This document shows, one piece after another, positions 562 to 53,661 of a DNA stretch of 64,000 nt (positions are counted from its first letter, which is position 1; every line of letters begins with the position of its first letter). The DNA comes from an uncultured Ectothiorhodospiraceae bacterium (lineage in GTDB: Bacteria; Pseudomonadota; Gammaproteobacteria; S012-40): NCBI GenBank assembly GCA_945787125.1, contig CALZHW010000002.1:22900-86899 (forward strand), written 5' to 3'. A model generated the notes under the pieces. The model was not told the origin of the DNA. It did no database searches and saw only the letters and a list, made by a program, of their open reading frames with translations. Position numbers and translations under genes: made by a program.

Positions 562-1413
562 ATGACAATAATTGTAGGATTTTTAATCGTAATCATTTGT
601 GTGTTTGGCGGCTTCCTGCTCTCAGGCGGAAGTCTCGTGGCGTTATGGCATCCACCTGAGTTAGTGATTATTGCGGGTGGTGCAACTGGTGCCCTAATAT
701 TGGCTAACCCGGCGAAAGTCTCTAAAAAAATAATGAAAGAAATCCCCGCGTTGCTTAAAGGTTCAAAATACACAAAAGAAATGTATATGGATCTGCTAGC
801 GTTGCTGTTTGATCTTTTTACCTTGGCGCGAAAAGAAGGTTTGATGTCATTAGAGGCGCATATTGAAGAACCAGAGCAGAGCGAGGTATTTTCAAAATAC
901 CCTAAAGTGATGTCGGATCATCATGCGATAGAATTTATGACCGATTATTTGCGCTTGATGGTAACCGGTGCGGCAAATGCAATGGAAATTGAAGACCTCA
1001 TGGACAAGGAGTTAGAAACGCATCACAAGGAAGGCGGTATGGCGCATGGTGCTATGCAATTGATGGCAGATGGTCTACCAGGTTTTGGTATCGTTGCGGC
1101 AGTTATGGGGGTGGTAATCACCATGGCATCGATTGACCAGGGCCCGGCGGTGATTGGTGCTAAAGTTGGTGCGGCGTTGGTGGGTACCTTTGTGGGTATT
1201 TTGTTGTCATACGGAATATTTGGCCCAATTGCTAACGCAATGTCGTATATTGCCGAAGATGAAAGTAAATTTATTGAAGTGATCAAGGTTTCGTTGTTAG
1301 CGTCATTGAATGGCTATAGTCCACAAGTGGCCATTGAGTTTGGTCGTAAAGTCATTTACTCAACAGAAAGACCGGGATTTTTAGAGCTCGAAGAGTTCGT
1401 TAAAAACAAGTAA
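562..1413 (+). CDS. motA: Flagellar motor stator protein MotA/PomA
   Basis: 283 aa with four predicted TM helices and a large cytoplasmic loop, the typical MotA/TolQ/ExbB architecture. motB follows 20 nt downstream. Confidence 0.85.
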   Translation: MTIIVGFLIVIICVFGGFLLSGGSLVALWHPPELVIIAGGATGALILANPAKVSKKIMKEIPALLKGSKYTKEMYMDLLALLFDLFTLARKEGLMSLEAHIEEPEQSEVFSKYPKVMSDHHAIEFMTDYLRLMVTGAANAMEIEDLMDKELETHHKEGGMAHGAMQLMADGLPGFGIVAAVMGVVITMASIDQGPAVIGAKVGAALVGTFVGILLSYGIFGPIANAMSYIAEDESKFIEVIKVSLLASLNGYSPQVAIEFGRKVIYSTERPGFLELEEFVKNK

Positions 1414-1433
1414 ATAAACGCTACGGTGCCTGA

Positions 1434-2429
1434 ATGGCTGAAAATCTACAACCAATAATCGTTAAAAAGATCAAGAAGGCAGCCCACGCTGGACATCATG
1501 GTGGTTCCTGGAAAGTGGCGTATGCGGATTTCGTAACAGCCATGATGGCGTTCTTTTTGTTGCTCTGGTTGCTATCATCCACTAGTCAGGAAACGCTATC
1601 CGGTGTGGCGGATTATTTTGAAAACCCCAGTGCCATCAATGCAGCCGGTGGGACTAGCACGAGTATGATTGAGCTGGGTAGTAATATTGATAGTTCAAAA
1701 GGTGACGGCGATCAGGGTCGGGAAAGCGATAGTTTTGAATACTATAGTGAAGCCTTTGAGCAAATGGAAACGGATAAACTTGAGGCATTAAAAGCGAAAA
1801 TTGAAGACGTGATTGAGAATACGCCTTCAATCACAGAATATAACGATCAGATATTAATTGAAATCACCGAAGAAGGTTTGCATATTCAAATTATTGATGA
1901 AAATAATCGCCCCATGTTTGACAGGGGAAGTGCCGAATTGAAAAGTTATGCGAAAAAAATTCTTCGCGAAATTTCTCCTATTCTTAATACCATTCAGAAT
2001 AAAATGAGTATTTCCGGTCATACTGATGCGAAACGTTACACGCATAACGATACTTATAGTAACTGGGAGCTATCCAGTGATCGAGCCAATGCGGCACGCC
2101 GGGAATTGGTTCGTGCCGGCACCCCGAGTAGTAAAATCGCACGGATAGAAGGATTGGCATCCCGATTTTTATTAAAACCGGATAAACCTACTGATCCAGC
2201 CAATCGCAGAATTGACATCTTAATGTTGAAGAAAAAATCTGAAGATAGTCTCTACCGGGAAAAAGGTGTGGAACCAGAACCGATGACGCCTGAAGAGCAG
2301 AAATTAAATAACCAGAAAAACAAAAAAGTTGAAAATAAAAAAAATCCAGTGGATACTCTTGAACTTCAAGAGGCCATTCGTAGTGGCACTAACCGCAATA
2401 CCGGTGCGGTGGTACGCTTTAGAGAATAA
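1434..2429 (+). CDS. motB: Flagellar motor protein MotB (OmpA-like C-terminal peptidoglycan-binding domain)
   Basis: A single N-terminal TM helix carries the conserved Asp (YADFVTAMMAFFLLLWLL). The C-terminus is OmpA-like (SGHTD..., NRRIDI). The gene is adjacent to motA. Confidence 0.85.
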   Translation: MAENLQPIIVKKIKKAAHAGHHGGSWKVAYADFVTAMMAFFLLLWLLSSTSQETLSGVADYFENPSAINAAGGTSTSMIELGSNIDSSKGDGDQGRESDSFEYYSEAFEQMETDKLEALKAKIEDVIENTPSITEYNDQILIEITEEGLHIQIIDENNRPMFDRGSAELKSYAKKILREISPILNTIQNKMSISGHTDAKRYTHNDTYSNWELSSDRANAARRELVRAGTPSSKIARIEGLASRFLLKPDKPTDPANRRIDILMLKKKSEDSLYREKGVEPEPMTPEEQKLNNQKNKKVENKKNPVDTLELQEAIRSGTNRNTGAVVRFRE

Positions 2430-2431
2430 AA

Positions 2432-3061
2432 ATGAAAAAATTCATACTCATTATCATGTTGTTGCTATCTCATTTTGTTTATGCCCAACCGAGCATTCAG
2501 GTGGTAGGTTTGTTTAAAAATAAAGTCCTGCTGGTGGTTGATGGTAAACAAAAGCTGTTACGTGTTGGCCAAACTTTTCGAGAGGTCACGTTGGATTTTG
2601 CAAATTCTGATAAAGCCGTGTTAAGTTTCAATGGTGTGTCGAAACCTTATACATTGGGCAGCAGCAATAGTTTTGGGGCGAGAAAAACCTCAAAGGCAAG
2701 TTTCTCTGTTGCACTCGATGCTAGTGGCTCCTATAAAACCCCCGGCAGCATCAATGGTAAAGTTGTAGATTTCATAGTGGATACCGGGGCAACAACTGTA
2801 TCGATCAACTCAGTAGTTGCCAAGTGGCTTGGCATAGATTACAAAAGTGGCAAAGAGGTGAATGTAACAACAGCATCGAGTCAAGTGATAGGTTATCAGG
2901 TTACTTTGGATAAGATTTCTTTAGGTAGCATTCGTTTAACGGGCATTGAAGCCACCGTGCTTGAAGGTGAGCATCCCGCCATTGCATTATTAGGTATGTC
3001 ATTCTTAAAGCATTTAAAAGTGCTCAATGAAAATGGCATGATGCATTTGACGCAGAAGTGA
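2432..3061 (+). CDS. Secreted retropepsin-like (clan AA) aspartic protease
   Basis: Signal peptide MKKFILIIMLLLSHFVYA. It has the D-T-G-A active-site motif (FIVDTGATTVSIN). It starts 3 nt after the motB stop. Confidence 0.7.
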   Translation: MKKFILIIMLLLSHFVYAQPSIQVVGLFKNKVLLVVDGKQKLLRVGQTFREVTLDFANSDKAVLSFNGVSKPYTLGSSNSFGARKTSKASFSVALDASGSYKTPGSINGKVVDFIVDTGATTVSINSVVAKWLGIDYKSGKEVNVTTASSQVIGYQVTLDKISLGSIRLTGIEATVLEGEHPAIALLGMSFLKHLKVLNENGMMHLTQK

Positions 3062-3095: not shown

Positions 3096-3442
3096 CTCAC
3101 AATCGGAGTTCAAAATTGCCACCTTCCAGCACCCGTAGCAGCAAAACCTTACCGAGAGACGCTGTGAATACGTCCTTGTAGGCTTAAACCTAGATTAATC
3201 AGTTGAACCACGATTTCTAGCGCAAGTTCTTGAAGCACCTAACGAATCCAAGAATCTGCTAATCACCAATAAGGTGACCACGCAATTCTTGAATTCACTA
3301 TCCACTCCAATATCTTACGCTATAAATTCGCGCCAACTGATTATTCTAGGTTGAACGCAGCATCCCTGCTGCCAACACTCTCGATAAGGCCTTGCCACTA
3401 CGAGCGCTAATTACGAGGAATAGTTTGAACACTGATTGTGAG
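3096..3442. repeat. PAL-1 palindromic MITE-like element, expanded copy of about 347 bp with an extra internal segment
   Basis: The termini ctcacaatcggagttcaaa (left) and tttgaacactgattgtgag (right) are inverted repeats. The internal arms ccgtagcagcaaaaccttaccgagagacg and ttgccactacgagcgct match the other PAL-1 copies. Confidence 0.75.
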
Positions 3443-7636: not shown

Positions 7637-7879
7637 CTATTTATCATCTTCAAGGTTTGCAGTAAAAGGCTCAATGCTTAAATTGTCTTCCTTTTCCAGC
7701 AGTTGGCTAACCTTTTGTTCGGCGGCTTGTAGCGCTGTTTGACAATCGGACGTTAGTTTGATGCCTTTTTCAAAAGCGCTGAGTGATTCTTCCAGGCTCA
7801 AGTCCCCGGATTCCATTTTGCTCACAATTTCATCGAGCTCGGCCAGTGATTCTTCGAAAGCTTTAGGCTCGGATTTTCG
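7637..7879 (-). CDS. xseB: Exodeoxyribonuclease VII small subunit
   Basis: The 80-aa helical protein MPRKSEPKAFEESLAELDEIV... sits immediately upstream of ispA, the conserved xseB-ispA-dxs order. The start is placed at ATG 7879 rather than the longer ORF. Confidence 0.85.
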   Translation of the reverse strand, partial: RKSEPKAFEESLAELDEIVSKMESGDLSLEESLSAFEKGIKLTSDCQTALQAAEQKVSQLLEKEDNLSIEPFTANLEDDK

Positions 7880-7949
7880 GGGCATGACGATTCTCACTGT
7901 GAAAAAACGCGTACCATATCTCAGGTATGAATTAAGGTCAAACACTAGG

Positions 7950-8190
7950 AGCCTGACCGAGAATGGAAGTCGTTACGAGGGAAAACCGTTTTAGTGCGGA
8001 TTTTTCGATCGTTTGAAGTTAATAGCCGTAGCTATTCGCTGAAAAGGATCGGAAAATATGTGCAAAACGGGTTTTCCGCACGACTGCATGGATGCAGGAG
8101 GTACGAGCCCATGGATGGGCGAAGGTAGAGCAATAATGCAGGAGCAGTTGCCGAGTAGGCTTTCCATTCTCGGACAGGCTCCTGGGCATA
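7950..8190. repeat. R2 composite intergenic repeat, reverse-orientation short copy bounded by a 19-bp inverted repeat
   Basis: The segment 8086..8190 is the reverse complement of the R2 core. That core contains ctaccttcgcccatccatgggctcgta..ctgcatccatgcag. Flanking inverted repeats are ggagcctgaccgagaatgg (7950) and ccattctcggacaggctcc (8166). Confidence 0.7.
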
Positions 8191-8243
8191 TCCATTTGCC
8201 TGGAATTTTGCTAGCCTATCTCTATTGTTAACACACTTTATAT

Positions 8244-9212
8244 TTGGATATACCATTGCAAAAAACAACCAATAACGCTTTGACTTTGATCTTGCCGCAA
8301 CTTTTATCCCACGTGAAAAAGAATTCATCGATGGATTGGAAGTACTTGAGCATGATATTGGCCAGAAGCCAGTGTCACGATTTGCGTTTATCAGCAAAAG
8401 ATTATGCGTTGCAATTATTTGGTTTGCCAGATGCCAGTGCGGCGGCGGCCTTGAATTTATTGAATGCTGGTTATACGCTGGAAGATAAATTCGCGTGTTT
8501 TGCTGAGCCAGCAAATATCCAGCCCAATCGAGATTTTTTGTATGTGACGACCACGGATTTTAGCGACTTAACGACCCAAGAAATTGCTGCGTTGATAGAA
8601 GAATTGAATACTTATTTTGCAGAAGACGGTTTTCAATTTCAGGCATTAACGCCACAACGATGGGTGTGCATTTTACCGGAGAAAATGAACTTACCAACCG
8701 TTTTCACGCGAGATATAATCAGCGAAAATATTTTGCCACACATGCCCGATACCCCGGATAATTTTCGTTTCAAAAAATTCCTCTCCGATGTGCAGATGGT
8801 GCTGCATCATTCGAAAACCAACCAACAAAGAAATCAACAAGGTAAAGTTGAAGTCAATAGTCTCTGGTTAAGCGGTGCTGGCTGCTTGCCACGTGAAGTC
8901 AAAACTAATCTTACTTGCGTATATACAGATAATATTGAAGTGATGGCCTTGTCCCAGCTCGCCGGAATCGATCTTAGATCGGCTAATGAGTTTTCGATGC
9001 TTAAGAAAAATTTTACTGAGGAGAGTTGTCTTTTCCTCGACCTGCAAGCCGATTTTCAAATTTCAGTTAATCCAGCTGTGTTTCAAACGATATTTGAAGC
9101 TGTCAGGAATAAAACGCTGCATGAAGTAAAGCTAATCATCAATGAAGAACAGTTTTTCCTGTTTAACTATAGCGCATCCAAACGGTTTTGGAAGCGGAAA
9201 TTTCGATTTTAG
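8244..9212 (+). CDS. Hypothetical protein (island gene 1, 322 aa)
   Basis: A long ORF with coherent codon usage and no family I can name. The start is uncertain: TTG at 8244 or ATG at 8331 (MDWKYL...). It carries a G-rich motif, NSLWLSGAG. Confidence 0.5.
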   Translation: MDIPLQKTTNNALTLILPQLLSHVKKNSSMDWKYLSMILARSQCHDLRLSAKDYALQLFGLPDASAAAALNLLNAGYTLEDKFACFAEPANIQPNRDFLYVTTTDFSDLTTQEIAALIEELNTYFAEDGFQFQALTPQRWVCILPEKMNLPTVFTRDIISENILPHMPDTPDNFRFKKFLSDVQMVLHHSKTNQQRNQQGKVEVNSLWLSGAGCLPREVKTNLTCVYTDNIEVMALSQLAGIDLRSANEFSMLKKNFTEESCLFLDLQADFQISVNPAVFQTIFEAVRNKTLHEVKLIINEEQFFLFNYSASKRFWKRKFRF

Positions 9213-9382
9213 TGGATTAACCTTTGAAAGGAAGGGGATCTACTTCCGTAGGGTTCATCTACGCACCATCCTTCGTGTCTAATGTCAACGAATTCGGGTC
9301 TAATTATTGCTGTGTTAAAACCGCTTGAGATGGGTTGATGAGTTGAAGAGCTCAAAAATATAGCGGTGATCAGCTTTTTATG

Positions 9383-9621
9383 CTCAAGTTTCGGCGTTCA
9401 AATGTTTTTCCCGTAATTAACGCTCGTCGTGGCAAGGCCTTGTCGAGAGTGTTGGCGGCATGCATGCTGCCGGTAAGCCTTATATGATTAATTTTAGTAA
9501 CCAAAAGCTTATGCAGCGGAACTAATTTCAAAGGGATGTATTCACGTCGTTTCTCAGTAAGGTTTTGCCGCTGCGGGTGTTGGAAAGTGCCACTTTTGCA
9601 CCTTTGAACTCCAAATGTGAG
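9383..9621. repeat. PAL-1 palindromic MITE-like element copy
   Basis: It contains ctcaagtttcgg ... cgtcgtggcaaggccttgtcgagagtgttggcggcatgcatgctgcc ... tctcagtaaggttttgccgctgcgg. The arms are reverse complements of each other. It lies between island genes 1 and 2. Confidence 0.8.
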
Positions 9622-9674
9622 TAAATATAATTAGTGAAAGAAGTATCGAAAAGGGAAAACGGCGTACTATTAAT

Positions 9675-11552
9675 ATGACAGAAAATTTCCAGAAAATTTT
9701 GCTTAGCCCGTTGTTCATGGGGCGTGAAACGGAATACAAATTACATTTGTGGTTGGATTCTAATCCCCCAGAAAAAATGAATGTTAGCCCATTTAAGCAA
9801 ATCGTGTTTGAGGATGGTGTGCGTTGCTTTGAAGCGGAGCTGGAATGCGGTGACGGTTTTCTGACTAAAAAAGTTTTCTTGGGTTTAATCGGCGAAAATC
9901 CGCCAAACAAAATCTTTCACTCTGAGCTCATGCAGCTGATCAAGGCGAGTCATTTACCAAAGCAGGTAGCGATGGCGTTTGGCGATGAGTATCCGTTCAC
10001 TATATTTCCATTGTTATATTGCCGTGAAAAAAATGATTTCATGGCCATACCGACTAAGGATAAAGGCAAACCTTTTTCTCAGCTACTGGCATCGATTGAC
10101 AGCAGCGAAGAGGCAGATGATTACGCTTGTGTTAATTGCGCTGAAAGGCCAAAGTGTTTTGGTATTGAGCGCAATGTAGAACAGGCTTTATCGATTTTCA
10201 ATGCGGGCCCAGCAGGTTTGTTTTTGCTGGATAATTATCCGCTTAATCTGCTGGAGTCGTCGCAACTTATTGGCTGCAGCGATACCGAAGATCGCGCACT
10301 TTATCTGGAAAACCTGGCTGAACAGCAGCCTGCCCGGGTTGATTACCTTAAAGGTTTGACATTTCAATCCTACAAAGAAAGAAATGTAACGCAAACGACG
10401 GTTGAGAAGTTACGCCTATTTGAATCTGTCATCAATTACCTGAAATCTTTAGTGCAAGAAAATAAGGATGTATTGTCAATATTTCAACACGATCAACTTT
10501 ATGTCAATGATAGCTGCGCAACTTCGCAGACGTTAACTCTTTCATTGCTGCCTTTTTCCAGCAAAAAGCCCATTGAACATCAAGAGACACCTAATGGTTT
10601 TAATAGTGCAACCGCGCGGATCTTTGAGGAGCAGCAGTCTTATTGTATTGAATTTAGAAAAAACCTGAGCGACTTGTCGGTATTGGCCGTTGGGGACCGT
10701 TGTTTAATAGAGCTAGAAGACGATGGAAGTGGGTCTGCTAGAGTATTTTGTCAGGTGAATCGGGTTGAAAATGATTTTTATCAATTAGATCTGCAGCTGC
10801 AAAAAGATCAATCACTAGAGGATGTTCTCGTTTGTTTTCCGCAAGAGATGTTTAAACCGGTGAAATATCTTGTTGTGGAAAAAATGCCAGTTTTATCCGA
10901 TCAGTTATTCATGTGTTTTTTAAGTATTTTGCTGAAAAATTCCGTATTGGAAGAGCAAGAGTTACGTCATGCTCAGCAAATACTTTTACCGCTTTTGAAA
11001 ACGCAGAAAAATCTTAATGCCAATGATATGGCGCAAATGATTAATACAAATAGTGCTTTATCGGTGGTATTTCGTCAGGAAAATATTTATTACAAACCAT
11101 CAACGAAAGTCGGATACAAACTTTCATCTATTCACTGGTTAAAAATTATCGTCTGGATGTGTCAGACCGCTTATTATTTTGAAAAGAGTGCTGATGAGAA
11201 AGAGTCTGCAGAAATTATCGAATTTTTTGATTCAGCCTGCAATGAATTGGGGAGTTTGATTGATGAAATTGAGGCGTGTGTGCTCGATCCGGAAGTAGAG
11301 ACTGATGATCAGGATGAAATATTAAAGAAAGTACTGACAGAATTAATTGCTGATGAGGTTTGGTTAAACGCTGTCCTGGCGCTGGATGAACCGGATGAAA
11401 CTCCTTTGCATATAGTGGCTGACATCCCAGATGATGATAGTAGATCCTCGCGTAAGGATGAAGTTCCACTGCAAGCATCAAACCATAAACTTGATCAAGA
11501 CAATGATCGTACAATGATAATGCCGGCAAACAATGCATCAAGAAACCGTTAA
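9675..11552 (+). CDS. Hypothetical protein (island gene 2, 625 aa), with Cys-cluster and acidic C-terminal tail
   Basis: A 1.9 kb ORF with no recognisable family. It has Cys motifs (RCFEAELECGDGF, and a CxxCx5C motif CVNCAERPKCFG) and a strongly acidic C-terminus (DEPDETPLHIVADIPDDDSRS). It overlaps the next gene by 20 nt. Confidence 0.55.
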   Translation: MTENFQKILLSPLFMGRETEYKLHLWLDSNPPEKMNVSPFKQIVFEDGVRCFEAELECGDGFLTKKVFLGLIGENPPNKIFHSELMQLIKASHLPKQVAMAFGDEYPFTIFPLLYCREKNDFMAIPTKDKGKPFSQLLASIDSSEEADDYACVNCAERPKCFGIERNVEQALSIFNAGPAGLFLLDNYPLNLLESSQLIGCSDTEDRALYLENLAEQQPARVDYLKGLTFQSYKERNVTQTTVEKLRLFESVINYLKSLVQENKDVLSIFQHDQLYVNDSCATSQTLTLSLLPFSSKKPIEHQETPNGFNSATARIFEEQQSYCIEFRKNLSDLSVLAVGDRCLIELEDDGSGSARVFCQVNRVENDFYQLDLQLQKDQSLEDVLVCFPQEMFKPVKYLVVEKMPVLSDQLFMCFLSILLKNSVLEEQELRHAQQILLPLLKTQKNLNANDMAQMINTNSALSVVFRQENIYYKPSTKVGYKLSSIHWLKIIVWMCQTAYYFEKSADEKESAEIIEFFDSACNELGSLIDEIEACVLDPEVETDDQDEILKKVLTELIADEVWLNAVLALDEPDETPLHIVADIPDDDSRSSRKDEVPLQASNHKLDQDNDRTMIMPANNASRNR

Positions 11553-12243
11553 TTCACCCGATTTATCTATGTTGATGCTTAAGCTGAGCGATCAGCCAAT
11601 GAGTGTCAAAACACGTGCGCTGAAAATTTACTGCCTGTCGCAATTGCGTTACATATCGAGAAAAGAGATCATGACATTTCTTGCCATGGCTAACAGTACG
11701 TCGACAATTGATTATGCATTATTACAAGACGGTATTGATGCGTTGTTGAAGTCATCTCGCTTGATTCACAATAGATTGCGTGAAAAGTTGAACGCGATTA
11801 ATCAGGAACTATTTGCTGAAACCTTGCCTGACGAAAATGACGATCAATTGCTGGGGAAGTTATCAGTTCAGCTTTTTGATGTTAAACAGAAAATTCTTAC
11901 AGTAGCGCAGGCATCGAATGAAAACATGAATTCACTGCCGCAGGCATTAGAGGTGATTGAGCGCCAGGCGGCTAATCGACAAAAAGCGATGTATGAAGCC
12001 GTGCAAATCATTATTGATCGACTGATTGACTCATTTGATCCGGAGTCATTCGAGAAATTCATCGATAAGAAAGTCATGAGAGTTGGCCCGTTAAAGAAAG
12101 CGGCGATGCTTGATGTGGCGAAAGATAAATATGAGCAAGTTGCTGCCTACCAGAAAGAGGGTAAAATGTTACGTGATTTCAAAGTGCACTATAAGTCTCA
12201 GTTGAAAAAACTAAATCAGCTGAGTGAAAACCCAGTAAAATAA
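11533..12243 (+). CDS. Hypothetical coiled-coil protein (island gene 3, 236 aa)
   Basis: It is translationally coupled (20-nt overlap) to island gene 2. Its composition is helical and charged, and I recognise no motifs. Confidence 0.5.
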   Translation: MHQETVNSPDLSMLMLKLSDQPMSVKTRALKIYCLSQLRYISRKEIMTFLAMANSTSTIDYALLQDGIDALLKSSRLIHNRLREKLNAINQELFAETLPDENDDQLLGKLSVQLFDVKQKILTVAQASNENMNSLPQALEVIERQAANRQKAMYEAVQIIIDRLIDSFDPESFEKFIDKKVMRVGPLKKAAMLDVAKDKYEQVAAYQKEGKMLRDFKVHYKSQLKKLNQLSENPVK

Positions 12244-12518
12244 TAAGTCTAATAGCATCGGTATATTAAGTTATAATATGCCCAGTCTTTTTTTAAGCCT
12301 AGAATTTAGTCCGCAGATGTAGATAAAATCCACTATAACCCTTGATTTTATAAAATAATTTACCTATGATACGCGGTCATGGGCATATGGCTCTTTAATG
12401 AATAAGATTTTAAATTATGAAGAAAGCGCAATTATGATGTAAATCAAAGGCTTAGCGCTTGGTTGTTACTTCAATGACCAGAGTTTGTGACTCTGTGTTT
12501 GTAATTTGAAGAGAATTT

Positions 12519-12548
12519 AAAAAAGTGGGCCATTGGCCCACTTTTTGT
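12519..12548. terminator. Perfect GC hairpin flanked by an A-run and a T-run (bidirectional intrinsic terminator) just upstream of rimP
   Basis: The sequence is aaaaaagtgggccattggcccactttttg, with stem gtgggcc/ggcccac and loop att. Confidence 0.6.
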
Positions 12549-12561
12549 TTACAGGGGTTTC

Positions 12562-14568: not shown

Positions 14569-17160
14569 ATGAGCATGTCGGAAGTAACGGTAAAACAGTT
14601 TGCGGAAGTCGTTGGGATCCCAGTGGATCGACTTATCTCGCAATTAAGCGATGCAGGTCTGCCGGTTAAAACGTCGGAAGAAACTATTACCGACGATGAA
14701 AAGATGCAGTTGCTGTCCTTTCTGCGTGGTCGGAGAGGTGATTCAGCGGTAGATGCTACACCAAAAAAAATCACTCTGAAAAGAAAATCAGTTAGTGAAA
14801 TCAAACAAAAAACCGGCACCAGCGGTGGTATAGGTCAGGGTAAAACCGGCTCAAGAACCATTAGCGTAGAAGTGCGCAAACGACGTACCTACGTGAAACG
14901 TAGCGATGCGGTAACCGATGAAGATAAAGCTGCGTTAGAAGCCGTTGCCGAAGCAAAAGTTCGTCAAGAAAAAGAGCTTGAACAAGAAGAGCAGAAACGT
15001 GAGAAAAAACAAGAACAAGTGCGTTTGCAGCAGGAAGAAGTATTGATTGCACAAGCCAAACTAGAGCAAGAACAAGCGCAGCAGGCGGAAGAAGTTAGCG
15101 CACCGGTTGCGACAGCAGCAGCCCCGGCTGCCAAAGTCATAAGCAAAGAGCCAGAACTCACAGCTGAAGAAAAGGCAAAAAAACAGGCGGAAGAAACGCA
15201 AGCGCAAGCAGCAAGAGAGGAAAAAGGCGCCAGTAAAAAGAAAAAACGCAAAGATAATAAAGGTCGTGCTGGCGACGAAGGTGGTCGTAAGGAGTTACAT
15301 GTATCTTCTGATAAAGCCGGTAGACGCAAGAAAAAAGGTCGCCAGACACGCAGTACTGCAACGAGTTCTTCGCCCCAACAACATGGTTTTGAAAAACCGA
15401 CCGGCCCGATCGTTAGAGAGATTGGTGTCCCTGAGGCGATTACCGTTGCAGAATTGGCGCAGAAAATGTCAGTTAAAGCCGCCGAGGTTATTAAAGTATT
15501 TATGCGACTCGGTACCATGGCGACTATCAATCAGGTGCTGGATCAAGATACCGCAACACTGGTAGTGGAAGAAATGGGCCATATTGCAAAACCCGTCAGT
15601 GAAAATGCACTCGAAGATGCATTAATGCAGGCAGAAAATCTAGGCGAAGCCGTAACACGCCCTCCAGTAGTTACAATTATGGGGCATGTTGATCACGGTA
15701 AAACATCGCTGTTAGATTACATTCGTCGCGCTAAAGTCGCATCAGGTGAGGCAGGTGGTATTACCCAGCATATTGGTGCTTACCATGTTGATACGGCGAA
15801 AGGTACGGTAACTTTTCTCGATACACCAGGGCATTCGGCATTTACCGCCATGCGTGCGCGTGGCGCAAATGTGACTGACGTGGTTATTCTGGTCGTTGCT
15901 GCTGACGATGGTGTCATGCCGCAGACTAAGGAAGCCATTCAGCACGCCAAAGCTGCAGGCGTACCCATGGTAGTTGCTGTCAACAAAATTGATAAAGAAG
16001 CGGCCGATCCTGATCGCGTTAAAAATGAATTGGCGCAAGAAAAAGTCATTCCTGAAGACTGGGGTGGTGATACGATGTTTGTGCATGTGTCAGCGAAAAC
16101 CGGTGAAGGCATTGATGAATTACTCGATGGTGTATTATTGCAATCCGAAGTATTGGAACTCAGGTCCATTGCCACAGGCCCTGCTAAAGGTGTCATTGTA
16201 GAGTCACGTTTGGATAAAGGTCGTGGTCCAGTTGCGACATTGCTGATTCAGTCAGGTCAATTGAAAAAAGGCGATATTGTACTGGCCGGGCAAGAGTTTG
16301 GTCGGGTGCGGGCCATGATGGATGAGAATGGCAAGCCTATATTGACAGCGGGCCCTTCAATGCCGGTTGAAATTCTCGGTTTATCCGGCACACCGGAAGC
16401 CGGCGATGAAACGATAGTCGTACCTGATGAGAAAAAAGCGCGAGAAATTGCATTGTTCCGCCAAGGTAAATTCCGTGAAATCAAACTTGCCAAGCAGCAT
16501 GCTGCCAAACTTGATAACTTGTTCACTCACATGGAAGAGGGTGAAGTCTCAACCTTAAATGTCCTGTTGAAAACCGACGTTCGCGGTTCATTAGAAGCCT
16601 TATCGGACGCATTGACCAACTTATCCACTGATGAAGTGCGGGTTAAAATTGTTGCCAGCGGTGTTGGTGGAATTACCGAATCTGATGCTAACCTGGCATT
16701 AGCCTCAAGTGCAGTAGTGATTGGCTTTAATGTCCGGGCAGACAATGCCGCTAGACGTTTAATCGAAGAAGAAGGTATCGATCTACATTATTACAGTGTA
16801 ATTTACGATGTAATTGATGAAATTAAATCAGCTATGAGTGGCATGCTTGCACCGGAATTCAAAGAACAGATTCTTGGTTTGGCAGAAGTCCGGGATGTTT
16901 TCCGCTCACCCAAGCTGGGCGCAATTGCAGGTTGTATGGTGACCGAAGGCAGCGTAAAACGTCACCTTCCCATTCGTGTTTTACGCGATAATGTGGTTAT
17001 CTATGAAGGTGAGCTTGAGTCATTGAGACGCTTTAAAGACGATGTCAGTGAAGTGAAAAATGGTACCGAATGTGGGATTGGCGTTAAAAACTACAATGAT
17101 GTCAAGCCCGGTGACCAAATTGAAGTTTATGAACGAGTTAAGGTTGAGCGCACAATTTAA
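14569..17160 (+). CDS. infB: Translation initiation factor IF-2
   Basis: G-domain motifs [14 protein letters not shown] and NKID. The N-terminal region is low-complexity and Lys/Glu/Ala-rich. Confidence 0.95.
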
Positions 17161-25680: not shown

Positions 25681-25923
25681 GATTCTACAGAAGATTATCT
25701 TCGGCAAGCTGCTCCTCGATAACTGCTCCTGCGTTATTCTCGGCAATTGCTCCTGCATTGCTCTACCTTCATCCATCCATGGATTTGTACTTACGGGCGT
25801 CCTGCCCTAATGCATTGTTCTACCTTCGCCCATCCATGGGCTCGTATCTTCTGCATCCATGCAGTCGTCAATCGACCGTACGCACGGGTACGGCACTCAA
25901 TCAGATAATCTTCTGTAAAATCA
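25681..25923. repeat. R2 composite intergenic repeat, full copy with terminal inverted repeats
   Basis: The terminal inverted repeats are gattctacagaagattatc (left) and gataatcttctgtaaaatc (right). The interior holds repeated units (ttctaccttcRcccatccatgg, cgggcgtcctgccctaatgc) ending in the palindrome ctgcatccatgcag. Confidence 0.75.
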
Positions 25924-32564: not shown

Positions 32565-32766
32565 CTCACCATCAGAGTTCAACAATTGAAAATGCAAAAG
32601 TGTCACCTTCTTGCGCCCGTAGCGGCAAACCTTACCGAAACCTTACCGAGAGACGCCGTGTACGTTCTTGTAGGCTTGACGGCAGCAGCCATGCTGCCAA
32701 CACTTTCGCTAAGGCATTGCCACTACGGACGCTGATTATGCAGAGTAGTTGAACTCCGATTGTGAG
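32565..32766. repeat. PAL-1 palindromic MITE-like element copy
   Basis: It reads ctcaccatcagagttcaac ... ccgtagcggcaaaccttaccgagagacgccgtg ... ttgccactacggacgct ... gttgaactccgattgtgag. The arms are inverted. Confidence 0.8.
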
Positions 32767-32851
32767 TAACTAAAATGAGTAACTAAAAAGAAATATATAG
32801 GCGGGTCGAAATAGTTCGAACCGCCTTTATGCTAGAAATGATTTTTATCTA

Positions 32852-33067
32852 TTACTCACAATCGGCGTTCAAACTTGTAAAAATGCCGCCATCCAGCACC
32901 CGTAGCGGTAAGGCCTTAATCGAGTGACGCCGTGATACCTCTCTGTAGATACTCATATCGTTGTCGTTGGTATAGGTAATGTCTGCAAAACCTGATACAT
33001 TAGATCCGTTCGCAAAACTAACCGTTGGTAGTGTCGCTAATAATGAAAAAATTAGACGCTTGTTCAT
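32852..33067 (-). CDS. Small putative secreted protein whose C-terminal third is encoded by a PAL-1 half-copy (uncertain)
   Basis: 71 aa with a signal-like N-terminus MNKRLIFSLLATLPTVSFA. A hairpin with a T-run (32797..32828) lies downstream on the minus strand. Confidence 0.3.
   Translation of the reverse strand: MNKRLIFSLLATLPTVSFANGSNVSGFADITYTNDNDMSIYREVSRRHSIKALPLRVLDGGIFTSLNADCE
32855..32948. repeat. PAL-1 half-copy (left arm only)
   Basis: The sequence is ctcacaatcggcgttcaaac ... cacccgtagcggtaaggccttaatcgagtgacgccgtg. It forms the 3' end of the 71-aa minus-strand ORF. Confidence 0.7.
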
Positions 33068-45049: not shown

Positions 45050-45246
45050 TTACTTTTTGAATAAACGTATATCCGTGTAAGGCTTATCCCTCCTCTTCAA
45101 TTAAAAAGGAGGGGAGGGTTTGCGATATTATCTCGGGAATTGTAGTGGTCAAGTAAATCTACACATCTTGCATCCTAGTTTAGACTCCTCTTCGACTAAA
45201 TGGTATTTGCACTTAGGGGTGTCCTGCTTTAGTACGTTGTTCTCGA

Positions 45247-45418
45247 CAATTGCTCCTCGATAACTGCTCCTGCGTTATTCTACCTACGGGCGTCCTGCCC
45301 TAGTGCGTTATTCTACCTAAGGGTGTAATGGTCAAGTGCATTGTTCTACCTTTATCCATCCATGGCTTCGTACCTTCGCCTATCCATGGGCTGGAATTTC
45401 CTGCATTCATGCAGTCCT
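45247..45418. repeat. R2 composite intergenic repeat copy (minisatellite-like, tandem units of about 33 bp)
   Basis: It reads caattgctcctcgataactgctcctgcgttattctacctacgggcgtcctgccctagtgcgttattctacct...atccatccatgg...atccatgggct...ctgcattcatgcag. Degenerate upstream units extend the array to about 45130. Confidence 0.75.
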
Positions 45419-48685: not shown

Positions 48686-48703
48686 TCCTCTAGTAAATAT
48701 TAC

Positions 48704-48757
48704 TTAAGTTTCGGGGTGCAAACTTTTTCTCGTAATCAGCGATCGTCGTGGCAAAGC
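48704..48757. repeat. PAL-1 partial copy (left arm fragment)
   Basis: The sequence is cttaagtttcggggtgcaaactttttctcgtaatcagcgatcgtcgtggcaaagcc. Confidence 0.6.
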
Positions 48758-48760
48758 CAT

Positions 48761-53397: not shown

Positions 53398-53407
53398 CTG
53401 TTAAATA

Positions 53408-53598
53408 CTCAAGTTTCGGAGTTTAAACTATTTCCGGTAATCAGCGCTCGTAGCGGCAAAACCTTATCGAGAGTGTTGGCAGCATGGATGCTGCCGTCAA
53501 GCCTACATGGACGTATTCACGGCGTCTCTCGGTAAGGTTTTGCCGCTACGGATGCTGGAAAGTGTCACTTTGGCAACGTTGAATTCCGAAACTTGAGT
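53408..53598. repeat. PAL-1 palindromic MITE-like element, best-preserved copy (about 190 bp near-perfect palindrome)
   Basis: The left arm (ctcaagtttcggagtt..cgtagcggcaaaaccttatcgagagtgttggcagcatgg) and the right arm (ccatgga..tctctcggtaaggttttgccgctacgg..aattccgaaacttgag) are reverse complements of each other. Confidence 0.85.
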
Positions 53599-53661
53599 TA
53601 AATAGTGGGTGTGTGAAAGATTCCTGGATTGAGACACCCAATTCTAACCTGGAGTGATTTA

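What the first reader, a model, noticed from the sequence alone, without database searches (positions are those of the whole stretch)
7946..12560. 4.6 kb three-gene island of unknown function splitting the conserved xseB-ispA-dxs and rimP-nusA-infB blocks
Everything flanking this stretch is core, conserved synteny: dxs-ispA-xseB on one side, rimP-nusA-infB on the other. Inside it sit three co-directional ORFs with no family I can recognise. They are 322 aa, 625 aa and 236 aa, and the last two overlap by 20 nt. The island also holds an R2 repeat bounded by a 19-bp inverted repeat (7950..8190), a PAL-1 palindromic element between genes 1 and 2 (9383..9621), and a perfect A-run/hairpin/T-run (12519..12548) just before rimP. 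Being stuffed into a housekeeping junction, decorated with mobile-looking repeats and unassignable is the signature of horizontally acquired accessory cargo. That cargo could be a defence, effector or regulatory module. I cannot assign it a function, so its role is open. It is my best candidate for an undescribed system in this window.
Basis: partly seen in the sequence, partly recalled or inferred. Interest (0 to 1): 0.8.

Follow-up and report, generated by a model that had tools for sequence, protein, structure and literature searches.

The report
Lineage-specific conserved operon, not island
The three unknown genes are real. They are not a recently imported island but an old, fast-evolving operon that sits at this same spot in every relative found; small repeats have since landed in its spacers, and its function is still unknown.

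Summary
The sequence features are all present as described: three co-directional ORFs of 322, 625 and 236 aa, a 20-nt overlap between the last two, two repeat elements, and a hairpin before rimP.

The horizontal-acquisition reading fails. At least nine metagenomic relatives (Dxs 74-86 %, NusA 77-88 % identical) carry g1-g2-g3 between xseB-ispA-dxs and/or rimP-nusA-infB. GC3 and codon usage match the flanking genes. There is no integrase, tRNA or border repeat, and no PADLOC, viral or plasmid match for g2 or g3.

- **Ancestral form:** four genes. A MutS2 ATPase lacking its KOW and Smr domains sits between g1 and g2 in five relatives. This genome lost it, and a genome-wide MITE-like repeat lies in the gap.
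- **Hairpin:** it belongs to the rimP leader and recurs upstream of rimP in most of 79 other gammaproteobacterial loci.
- **g1:** belongs to an apgM-like family whose gene abuts recJ in Ralstonia and Piscirickettsia.
- **g3:** a basic coiled-coil protein with the C-terminal domain of the T6SS protein TagH, but no FHA domain.
- **g2:** an acidic orphan with four invariant cysteines, about 11 credible relatives among 1.84 billion representative proteins.

Function is unresolved. My low-confidence guess is a cytoplasmic complex acting in DNA or ribosome quality control. Interest is moderate to low.

The parts
7637..7882 (-). xseB (exonuclease VII small subunit, 81 aa), transcribed divergently from g1. 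It is the fixed left neighbour of the operon in relatives.
   Evidence: Pfam Exonuc_VII_S 1.8e-21. Same neighbour in L005, L006, L007, L009 and L094.
7947..8183 (.). MITE-like nested palindromic element, 237 bp with 22-bp terminal inverted repeats, inserted in the xseB-g1 spacer.
   Evidence: z = -11. An internal module is repeated at 25739-25868 and 45340-45416. It is absent from relatives, whose xseB-g1 spacers are 60-156 bp in four loci (328 bp in L094) against 361 bp here.
8244..9212 (+). g1: soluble 322-aa protein of an apgM-like (probably RpfE-type) family.
   Evidence: TIGR00306 apgM 1e-11 over residues 65-216, far below the cut-off. hhalign gives 98.7 % and 98.4 % probability to the recJ-adjacent hypothetical proteins of Piscirickettsia and Ralstonia. 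Orthologues lie at the same place in 5 relatives.
9380..9627 (.). Copy of a genome-wide dispersed MITE-like repeat in the g1-g2 spacer. It occupies the position where relatives carry a truncated mutS2.
   Evidence: Other copies at 3108-3430, 32593-32944, 48703-48758 and 53405-53604. There is no mutS2 remnant anywhere in the window.
9675..11552 (+). g2: acidic (pI 4.6) soluble 625-aa orphan protein. It has four invariant cysteines (C116, C152, C155, C161), a conserved ALSVVFRQEN..YKP motif, a D..WL..VL motif, and an acidic disordered tail ending in D.T.IM.
   Evidence: No Pfam, NCBIfam, PADLOC or PDB hit, whole or in segments. 13 hits among 1.84e9 representatives, two of them spurious. Alignments; physical properties.
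11533..12243 (+). g3: basic (pI 9) helical, coiled-coil 236-aa protein whose C-terminal half resembles the TagH/Fha C-terminal domain. It has no FHA domain and is translationally coupled to g2.
   Evidence: PF20232 matched by all 8 homologues, best 4e-6; the window copy scores 21.3 bits against a cut-off of 23.7. Coiled-coil PDB hits. The g2/g3 junction is tight in all loci, from a 20-nt overlap to a 12-nt gap.
12342..12561 (+). rimP-nusA-infB promoter and leader, not part of the three-gene unit. It has a promoter-like TTGATT-17-TATGAT (12342-12370), a conserved 2-codon mini-ORF (about 12434-12442), and a conserved terminator-like hairpin at 12519-12548.
   Evidence: 80 % identical to L002 and 70 % to L009 over about 225 nt. 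62 of 79 other gammaproteobacterial loci have a GC hairpin plus T-run within 120 nt upstream of rimP, mostly of the form TGGGCC-loop-GGCCCA 35-65 nt upstream.

Best explanation
**What it is (shown).** The stretch is a vertically inherited, clade-specific operon of a deep-branching, mostly uncultured gammaproteobacterial lineage. It lies between the divergently transcribed xseB-ispA-dxs operon and the rimP-nusA-infB operon.

- Its ancestral form had four genes: g1, a MutS2 ATPase lacking KOW and Smr (mutS2'), g2 and g3.
- This genome lost mutS2', and in some relatives' terms also a large cytochrome c gene downstream.
- It later took two genome-wide MITE-like repeats into the widened spacers.
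- The hairpin before rimP is the attenuator-like element of the rimP leader.

**How it probably works (inferred).**
- g2 (acidic, Cys4, probably zinc-binding) and g3 (basic coiled coil plus TagH-C-like domain) are translationally coupled, so they probably form a soluble cytoplasmic heteromer.
- g1 belongs to a family that elsewhere sits directly upstream of recJ. Here it sits next to xseB and, in relatives, mutS2'.
- The module therefore most likely acts as an accessory or adaptor complex in DNA recombination or repair, or in MutS2-type quality control of stalled ribosomes. g2-g3 would supply the recruitment function that the truncated MutS2 lacks.

The locus history is well supported. The functional assignment is a low-confidence inference.
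For: **Synteny.** xseB | g1-(mutS2')-g2-g3 | (cytochrome c) | rimP is found in L009, L094, L005+L002, L001, L006, L007/L092, L008/L093 and L090.

**Divergence.** Neighbours are 61-88 % identical, while g1-g3 are 21-43 % identical.

**Composition.** It equals the flanks.

**mutS2'.**
- It matches TIGR01069 at 473 bits but only over model positions 5-512 of 790, and matches B. subtilis MutS2 residues 6-509 of 785.
- It occurs in both sub-clades, each of which also has members without it, so it has been lost repeatedly.
- B. subtilis MutS2 is recruited to collided ribosomes through its KOW and SMR domains (PMC10897456).

**g1.** Its family lies directly upstream of recJ in Ralstonia (the genes abut) and in Piscirickettsia (they overlap). 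The order rpfE-recJ is reported in Xanthomonas citri (PMC4619228).

**g2 and g3.** g3 matches PF20232 in 8 of 8 homologues. g2 has four invariant cysteines. None of the three has a predicted membrane segment; g2 has pI 4.6 and g3 pI 9.0.

**Repeats and leader.** The repeats are genome-wide and absent from relatives. The rimP leader is conserved.
Against: - No direct evidence of function. g2 has no detectable homologue of known function, and the AlphaFold models were unusable (pLDDT 33 for g2, 63 for g3).
- g1-g3 persist intact where mutS2' is lost (window, L007, L008), so they do not strictly depend on it.
- In L008 g1 is absent as well, so only g2-g3 is the invariant core.
- The recJ, xseB and mutS2 links are guilt by association.
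- RpfE in Xanthomonas has pleiotropic regulatory and carbon-use phenotypes rather than a repair phenotype (PMC4619228).
- The equivalence of g1 with Xanthomonas RpfE itself rests on memory and shared gene order; it was not tested directly.
- The taxon could not be named. The scan of GTDB species genomes with the single g2 peptide pattern found no member of the clade.
Confidence: 0.6

Rival explanations
1. A recently horizontally acquired accessory island (defence, effector or regulatory cargo) inserted between two housekeeping operons, with the repeats marking its mobility.
For: - g2 and g3 are extremely rare in databases.
- None of 80 other gammaproteobacterial rimP-nusA loci carries them.
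- One MAG (L041) has xseB only one gene away from rimP.
- Repeats are present in the spacers.
Against: - Same locus and same gene order in at least 9 relatives spanning 74-88 % housekeeping identity.
- No compositional deviation.
- No integrase, tRNA or flanking direct repeats.
- No PADLOC hit, no viral relatives, and no plasmid relatives of g2 or g3.
- The repeats are genome-wide and absent from relatives.
- At most, an ancient insertion in the clade ancestor remains possible.
Confidence: 0.05
2. An orphan regulatory piece of a type VI secretion system. g3 would act like the TagH/Fha C-terminal domain in T6SS assembly control, with g2 as its partner.
For: PF20232 (T6SS_FHA_C) is matched by all 8 g3 homologues, and TIGR03354 TagH weakly.
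Against: - No FHA domain.
- No T6SS gene within 10 kb in any of the loci (gene tables).
- Only housekeeping and pentapeptide-repeat families appear among the families listed for the rest of the window.
- The function of the TagH C-terminal domain is itself undefined in the literature read.
Confidence: 0.07
3. A translation or ribosome-biogenesis accessory module functionally tied to the downstream rimP-nusA-infB operon, possibly co-transcribed into its leader.
For: - Constant adjacency to rimP in the window, L009, L002, L008 and L090.
- No clear terminator between g3 and the rimP promoter.
- The MutS2 partner in relatives belongs to a family that rescues collided ribosomes (PMC10897456).
Against: - In L007 the downstream neighbours are unrelated genes.
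- A 1,033-1,055-aa cytochrome c gene on the opposite strand separates g3 from rimP in L002 and L008/L093; matching opposite-strand sequence follows g3 in L090 and L001 (cytc column).
- rimP has its own conserved promoter and leader.
Confidence: 0.15
4. A metabolic or pleiotropic regulatory unit centred on g1 as a divergent apgM-type phosphomutase or phosphatase, or an RpfE-type regulator. g2-g3 would be unrelated neighbours.
For: Partial apgM similarity. RpfE phenotypes in Xanthomonas concern carbon use, motility and exo-enzymes (PMC4619228).
Against: - g1 covers only the central cap region of apgM, at 44.5 bits against a cut-off of 320.
- Its C-terminal part is too short for the metalloenzyme domain, and there is no PDB hit.
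- g1-g2-g3 order is kept in the window and four other loci (L007, L009, L094, L005+L002), and the end of g1 precedes mutS2'-g2-g3 in L001. Where mutS2' is present, g1 overlaps it by 4 nt in L009 and stops 14-17 nt short of it in L005, L006 and L094.
Confidence: 0.1
5. The three ORFs are decaying remnants of the ancestral four-gene operon after loss of mutS2'.
For: mutS2' has been lost and MITE-like repeats inserted in both spacers.
Against: - All three ORFs are full length relative to their orthologues.
- They keep every family-invariant residue.
- Two other lineages (L007, L008) also keep g2-g3 without mutS2'.
Confidence: 0.03

Closest known systems
RpfE-type / apgM-like proteins of beta- and gammaproteobacteria (Xanthomonas rpfE; recJ-adjacent hypothetical proteins of Ralstonia solanacearum and Piscirickettsia salmonis)
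   Same: g1 aligns full length, about 290-305 columns, at 98.4-98.7 % hhalign probability. The alignment includes the NS.W motif and, for Piscirickettsia only, the C-terminal FW.R motif (the Ralstonia alignment ends before it). The central region is apgM-like, and the gene heads an operon with a nucleic-acid enzyme.
   Different: Here it is followed by mutS2' (in relatives) or g2-g3 rather than recJ, and it diverges from xseB. Identity to Xanthomonas RpfE itself was not tested. The biochemical function of the family is unknown.
TagH / Fha1 (T6SS-associated FHA protein), C-terminal domain PF20232
   Same: The C-terminal 110 residues of g3 match profile positions 67-178 of 180, and all 8 orthologues match.
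   Different: There is no FHA domain and no T6SS neighbourhood. g3 is a stand-alone 211-236-aa protein coupled to an orphan partner. The window copy scores just below the Pfam gathering threshold.
MutS2 / RqcU (B. subtilis, T. thermophilus)
   Same: The gene between g1 and g2 in five relatives is a clear MutS2 core plus ATPase: TIGR01069 at 473 bits, and PDB 7qv3, 8qpp and 7vuf at 1e-63.
   Different: It is truncated after the ATPase domain and lacks KOW and Smr. It is rare in Gammaproteobacteria, and it is absent from the window itself.
E. coli metY-rimP-nusA-infB leader terminators / NusA autoregulation (from general knowledge)
   Same: A terminator-like hairpin immediately upstream of rimP, conserved across Gammaproteobacteria.
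   Different: There is no metY tRNA here and no Rfam family match. The stem is conserved in sequence (TGGGCC/GGCCCA), and a 2-codon mini-ORF lies upstream.
Bacterial MITEs / nested palindromic repeats (such as Correia, ERIC, Coxiella QMITEs; from general knowledge)
   Same: Short, non-coding, structured, bounded by inverted repeats, intergenic and multi-copy.
   Different: No target-site duplication is evident, no parent IS was identified, and the families are unnamed.

Membership tests
Recently acquired genomic island | Absent from the same locus in related genomes | tested here: not met
   g1-g3 orthologues occupy the same locus in at least 9 relatives.
Recently acquired genomic island | Deviant base composition or codon usage | tested here: not met
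   GC3 is 0.39-0.45 against 0.38-0.47 in the flanks. Synonymous-codon log-likelihood is -1.09 to -1.11 against -1.06 to -1.16.
Recently acquired genomic island | Integrase or transposase, tRNA target, flanking direct repeats | tested here: not met
   No tRNA. No flanking direct repeats. No mobility gene among the ORFs.
Known anti-phage defence systems (PADLOC-DB) | HMM match of at least one component | tested here: not met
   0 families for g1, g2 and g3 at E <= 1.
TagH/Fha (T6SS accessory) | N-terminal FHA domain | tested here: not met
   No FHA hit in g3 or in any of its 7 homologues.
TagH/Fha (T6SS accessory) | C-terminal T6SS_FHA_C domain (PF20232) | tested here: inconclusive
   The window copy scores 21.3 bits, below the 23.7 cut-off, at E 2.6e-4. 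All 8 homologues match, best 4.1e-6.
TagH/Fha (T6SS accessory) | Encoded within a T6SS gene cluster | tested here: not met
   No T6SS family in any neighbourhood table, nor among the families listed for the rest of the window.
apgM (cofactor-independent phosphoglycerate mutase) | Full-length match above the curated cut-off, including the metalloenzyme core | tested here: not met
   TIGR00306 at 44.5 bits against 320, covering only model positions 72-229 of 403. No PDB match.
RpfE-type (recJ-linked) protein family | Full-length homology to recJ-adjacent family members | tested here: met
   hhalign 98.7 % (Piscirickettsia, 305 columns) and 98.4 % (Ralstonia, 288 columns). Both genes lie immediately upstream of recJ.
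RpfE-type (recJ-linked) protein family | Homology to Xanthomonas RpfE itself | not tested
   No Xanthomonas sequence was available in the tools. The link rests on the shared rpfE-recJ gene order (PMC4619228) and on memory of the InterPro family.
MutS2 | MutS core plus ATPase gene present in the window | tested here: not met
   tblastn of two mutS2' proteins against the window gave nothing better than E 0.17. The gene is present only in relatives.
MITE | Terminal inverted repeats, small non-coding size, multiple genomic copies | tested here: met
   7947-8183 has 22-bp terminal inverted repeats and a shared internal module. 9380-9627 has 5 copies in 64 kb.
MITE | Target-site duplication and a cognate transposase | tested here: inconclusive
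   No duplication is visible at the borders of 7947-8183. No transposase was sought outside the window.
rimP-nusA-infB leader attenuator | Conserved terminator-like hairpin directly upstream of rimP across genomes | tested here: met
   62 of 79 loci have one; the TGGGCC-loop-GGCCCA stem is conserved. The leader is 70-80 % identical in L002 and L009.

The most novel reading that the evidence does not exclude
g2-g3, led by an RpfE-type protein and ancestrally partnered with a MutS2 ATPase lacking KOW and Smr, is an undescribed cytoplasmic quality-control module of a deep, uncultured gammaproteobacterial clade. The Cys4 protein g2 and the TagH-C-domain protein g3 would replace the missing recruitment domains of MutS2 and direct it, or ssDNA exonucleases, to stalled ribosomes or recombination intermediates. 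This would also give the TagH C-terminal domain and the RpfE family their first mechanistic context outside T6SS and quorum-sensing lore.
Probability: 0.15. Interest if true: 0.6.

Novelty: new variant of a known kind. Interest (0 to 1): 0.33.

Why it matters
It corrects a tempting misreading. Being unassignable, decorated with repeats and wedged between housekeeping operons does not make a stretch of DNA an imported island.

It also defines a small, very rare protein pair (g2-g3) whose only conserved partners are an RpfE-type protein and a truncated MutS2. If followed up, this could clarify three poorly understood items: the recJ-linked RpfE family, the TagH C-terminal domain, and Smr-less MutS2 proteins.

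As a by-product, it shows a sequence-conserved leader hairpin upstream of rimP across Gammaproteobacteria that has no Rfam family.

Tried and rejected
- **Structure.** AlphaFold2 of g2 with a 2-sequence alignment gave pLDDT 33 and was unusable. g3 gave pLDDT 63, and a Foldseek search against PDB found nothing below E = 4. The afdb50 library was unavailable.
- **Kinase idea.** Motif inspection suggested a pseudokinase-like core in g2.
- **g2 in pieces.** Pfam scans of g2 split into domain-sized segments from three divergent members found nothing credible. A weak DUF7399 hit appeared in one member only.
- **PDB profile searches.** For g1, g2 and g3 these gave only coiled-coil noise for g3 and a marginal zinc-ribbon hit (eS27, E 0.28) for g2.
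- **Genome scans.** The GTDB genome scan with the g2 motif found no relatives.
- **mutS2 remnant.** None was found in the window.
- **Rfam.** Nothing at gathering score in the window, and only sub-threshold noise at the hairpin.
- **Literature.** The papers read on TagH give no function for its C-terminal domain.

Full report
**1. Observation**

The ORF scan reproduces the three co-directional ORFs exactly:
- g1 8244-9212, 322 aa, TTG start.
- g2 9675-11552, 625 aa.
- g3 11533-12243, 236 aa, overlapping g2 by 20 nt.

xseB, ispA and dxs lie on the minus strand and rimP, nusA and infB on the plus strand, all far above Pfam cut-offs.

The inverted repeat is real and a little longer than reported. 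It is 22 nt and 95 % complementary, at 7947-7968 / 8162-8183, with no match in 100 shuffles. It bounds a 237-bp element with a nested 47-nt palindrome that folds with z = -11. A 55-nt internal module recurs at 25739-25868 and 45340-45416.

The element at about 9380-9627 is one of five copies or fragments of a dispersed repeat in the 64-kb window. The others are at 3108-3430, 32593-32944, 48703-48758 and 53405-53604. The hairpin at 12519-12548 is present.

**2. Is it an island?**

Database searches show that the three proteins are very rare.
- g2 has two clusters in the 5.8-billion-protein word-indexed search. It has 13 hits, about 11 of them credible, in an exhaustive HMMER search of 1.84 billion representatives.
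- g3 has four clusters and g1 three.

The contigs that encode these relatives tell a clear story.

| Locus | Arrangement |
|---|---|
| L009 | dxs-ispA-xseB, then g1, a 521-aa MutS_V protein, g2, g3, then rimP |
| L094 | dxs-ispA-xseB, g1, MutS_V protein, g2, g3 |
| L005 + L002 (same sample, DRR203710) | join inside the MutS gene to give folE2-PTPS-dxs-ispA-xseB, g1, mutS, g2, g3, a large cytochrome c gene on the opposite strand, then rimP-nusA-infB-rbfA-truB-rpsO-pnp |
| L001 | end of g1, mutS, g2, g3, cytochrome c |
| L007/L092 | motAB ... dxs-ispA-xseB, g1, g2, g3 |
| L008/L093 | g2, g3, cytochrome c, rimP-nusA-infB |
| L090 | g3, cytochrome c, rimP-nusA |

Relative to the window, neighbours are much more conserved than the three genes:
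- Dxs 74-86 %, IspA 61-73 %, RimP 61-71 % and NusA 77-88 % identical.
- g1 27-43 %, g2 21-37 % and g3 25-41 % identical.

The unit is therefore old, fixed in position and fast-evolving.

GC3 of g1-g3 (0.39-0.45) and their synonymous codon usage cannot be told apart from the flanks. The lower total GC comes from codon positions 1 and 2. There is no tRNA, no integrase and no border direct repeats. PADLOC gives nothing. Viral contigs hold no relatives, and plasmids hold none for g2 or g3.

The intergenic repeats have no counterpart in the relatives' loci. In four relatives the xseB-g1 spacer is 60-156 bp (328 bp in L094), and where g1 and g2 are adjacent (L007) that spacer is 52 bp. The window has 361 and 462 bp. 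The repeats are therefore secondary insertions of genome-wide elements.

Among 80 rimP-nusA loci of other Gammaproteobacteria (NusA 64-74 % identical; Ectothiorhodospiraceae, Woeseiaceae, unnamed MAGs) none holds g1, g2, g3 or the MutS gene. One of them, L041, has xseB separated from rimP by a single YkuD gene. The unit is thus specific to one deep clade. An ancient insertion in that clade's ancestor cannot be excluded, but a recent acquisition can.

**3. The hairpin**

About 225 nt upstream of rimP are 80 % identical in L002 and 70 % in L009. The conserved stretch includes:
- a promoter-like TTGATT-17-TATGAT,
- a conserved ATG-NNN-TAA mini-ORF,
- the hairpin AAAAAGTGGGCC-nnn-GGCCCACTTTTTGTTT.

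62 of 79 other gammaproteobacterial loci have a GC hairpin plus T-run within 120 nt upstream of rimP. In most it is TGGGCC-loop-GGCCCA, 35-65 nt before the start codon. It belongs to the rimP-nusA-infB leader. By analogy with the known NusA-autoregulated leader terminators, it is probably an attenuator. It is not an island border.

**4. The proteins**

*g1.*
- A tblastn search against mis-filed chromosomes in the plasmid collection found homologues in Piscirickettsia, Ralstonia and Neisseria.
- hhalign gives 98.7 % and 98.4 % probability over nearly the full length.
- In Ralstonia the homologue abuts recJ, and in Piscirickettsia it overlaps it. Xanthomonas citri has the order greA-rpfE-recJ (PMC4619228).
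- From memory, this is the 'RpfE-type regulatory protein' family. That last step was not tested.

*The MutS gene of the relatives.*
- It is a MutS2 truncated after the ATPase domain. It matches TIGR01069 at 473 bits over positions 5-512 of 790, and B. subtilis MutS2 residues 6-509 of 785. It therefore lacks the KOW and Smr domains that recruit MutS2 to collided ribosomes (PMC10897456).
- It is present in both sub-clades defined by IspA and g1 identity ({window, L005, L006, L009} and {L007, L094}), and each sub-clade also has a member without it.
- The ancestral operon therefore had four genes, and the window represents one of at least two independent losses. No remnant is left.

*g3.*
- It is basic (pI 9.0), helical and coiled-coil.
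- In all eight homologues its C-terminal half matches PF20232, the C-terminal domain of the T6SS FHA protein TagH.
- It has no FHA domain, and there is no T6SS gene nearby.

*g2.*
- It is acidic (pI 4.6), with no membrane segment.
- It has four invariant cysteines (C116, C152, C155, C161). Distant members carry an extra CxxC...CxxC ribbon.
- It has a nearly invariant ALSVVFRQEN motif and a D..WL motif, and an acidic disordered tail ending in D.T.IM.
- It matches nothing in Pfam, NCBIfam, PADLOC or PDB, whole or in pieces. A pseudokinase idea was tested and rejected.

The g2/g3 junction is always tight, from a 20-nt overlap to a 12-nt gap. Together with the complementary charge, this suggests a heteromer.

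**5. Mechanism**

*Shown:* the locus history, the family relations of g1 and g3, the orphan status of g2, and the soluble nature of all three proteins.

*Inferred:* g2-g3 form a cytoplasmic complex. Its recurrent partners are an RpfE-type protein that elsewhere precedes recJ, a recruitment-domain-less MutS2, and the neighbouring xseB. These point to DNA recombination or repair, or to MutS2-type ribosome quality control. I hold this at roughly 0.2-0.3 for the functional class, and at about 0.85 for the evolutionary description.

The module survives without mutS2' (window, L007, L008) and without g1 (L008), so g2-g3 is the core.

**6. Verdict**

The finding is real but mis-interpreted. It is not imported cargo. 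It is a clade-restricted, vertically inherited operon of unknown function, here in a reduced form invaded by MITE-like repeats.

It combines known but poorly understood families (RpfE-type, TagH-C, and MutS2 in relatives) with one orphan protein. I therefore rate it a new variant of a known kind, with moderate-to-low interest (0.33). The most novel reading that the evidence does not exclude is an undescribed MutS2- or exonuclease-linked quality-control module, at about 0.15 probability.

Noticed in passing
window 12342-12561; also L002 7128-7352, L009 7657-7879, L008 about 16330-16570, and most of L010-L089 upstream of rimP: The rimP leader is conserved in sequence. It has a promoter-like TTGATT-17-TATGAT, and 62 of 79 gammaproteobacterial loci have a GC hairpin plus T-run upstream of rimP, mostly (A)A(G/A)TGGGCC-loop-GGCCCA(C/T)TTTTT. 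No Rfam family matches it. It is probably a NusA-type attenuator.
   Followed up: partly
window about 12434-12442 (within GCGCAATTATGATGTAAATCA): A two-codon mini-ORF (ATG-NNN-TAA) in the rimP leader is conserved in L002, L009 and L008 although the middle codon varies. It could be a start-stop regulatory element.
   Followed up: no
L001 345-1910, L009 3149-4714, L094 4637-6199, L005 10966-11445 + L002 2-1114: Relatives encode a MutS2 that ends after the ATPase domain, with no KOW or Smr, between g1 and g2. It overlaps g1 by 4 nt in L009 and starts 14-17 nt after g1 in L005, L006 and L094. Such truncated MutS2 proteins in Gammaproteobacteria appear undescribed. It also hits phrog_30120 at 3e-93.
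   Followed up: partly
L095 4734-7511 (Ralstonia), L097 4761-7515 (Piscirickettsia): Members of the g1 family lie directly upstream of recJ in distant beta- and gammaproteobacteria: the genes abut in Ralstonia and overlap in Piscirickettsia. This suggests a conserved functional link between this uncharacterised family and the RecJ exonuclease.
   Followed up: partly
window 25739-25868 and 45207-45416: Clusters of a short repeat family (...CCATCCATGG... modules, several adjacent copies) share a 55-nt module with the 7947-8183 element.
   Followed up: no
window 3108-3430, 32593-32944, 48703-48758, 53405-53604: Further copies of the about 250-bp MITE-like repeat seen at 9380-9627, giving five in 64 kb. 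The genome is rich in small intergenic repeats.
   Followed up: partly
L002 3687-6854, L008 12937-16038, L090 993-4100 (minus strand): A 1033-1055-aa multi-haem cytochrome c-like gene lies between g3 and rimP in several relatives. It is absent from the window and from L009.
   Followed up: no
window 9604-9631: A good sigma-70-like promoter match (TTGAAC-16-TATAAT, 10 of 12) spans the right end of the MITE copy, 44 nt upstream of the g2 start. The repeat may now drive g2-g3.
   Followed up: no
window 562-3061: motA-motB followed by a retropepsin-like aspartyl protease gene is syntenic with L005 and L007, so collinearity with relatives extends at least 7 kb upstream of the finding.
   Followed up: partly
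window, remaining ORFs 19078-62916: Mostly housekeeping genes (pnp, rpsA, aroA/tyrA-type, cmk-type). There are also at least two pentapeptide-repeat proteins that resemble HetL and PipB2-type repeats.
   Followed up: no
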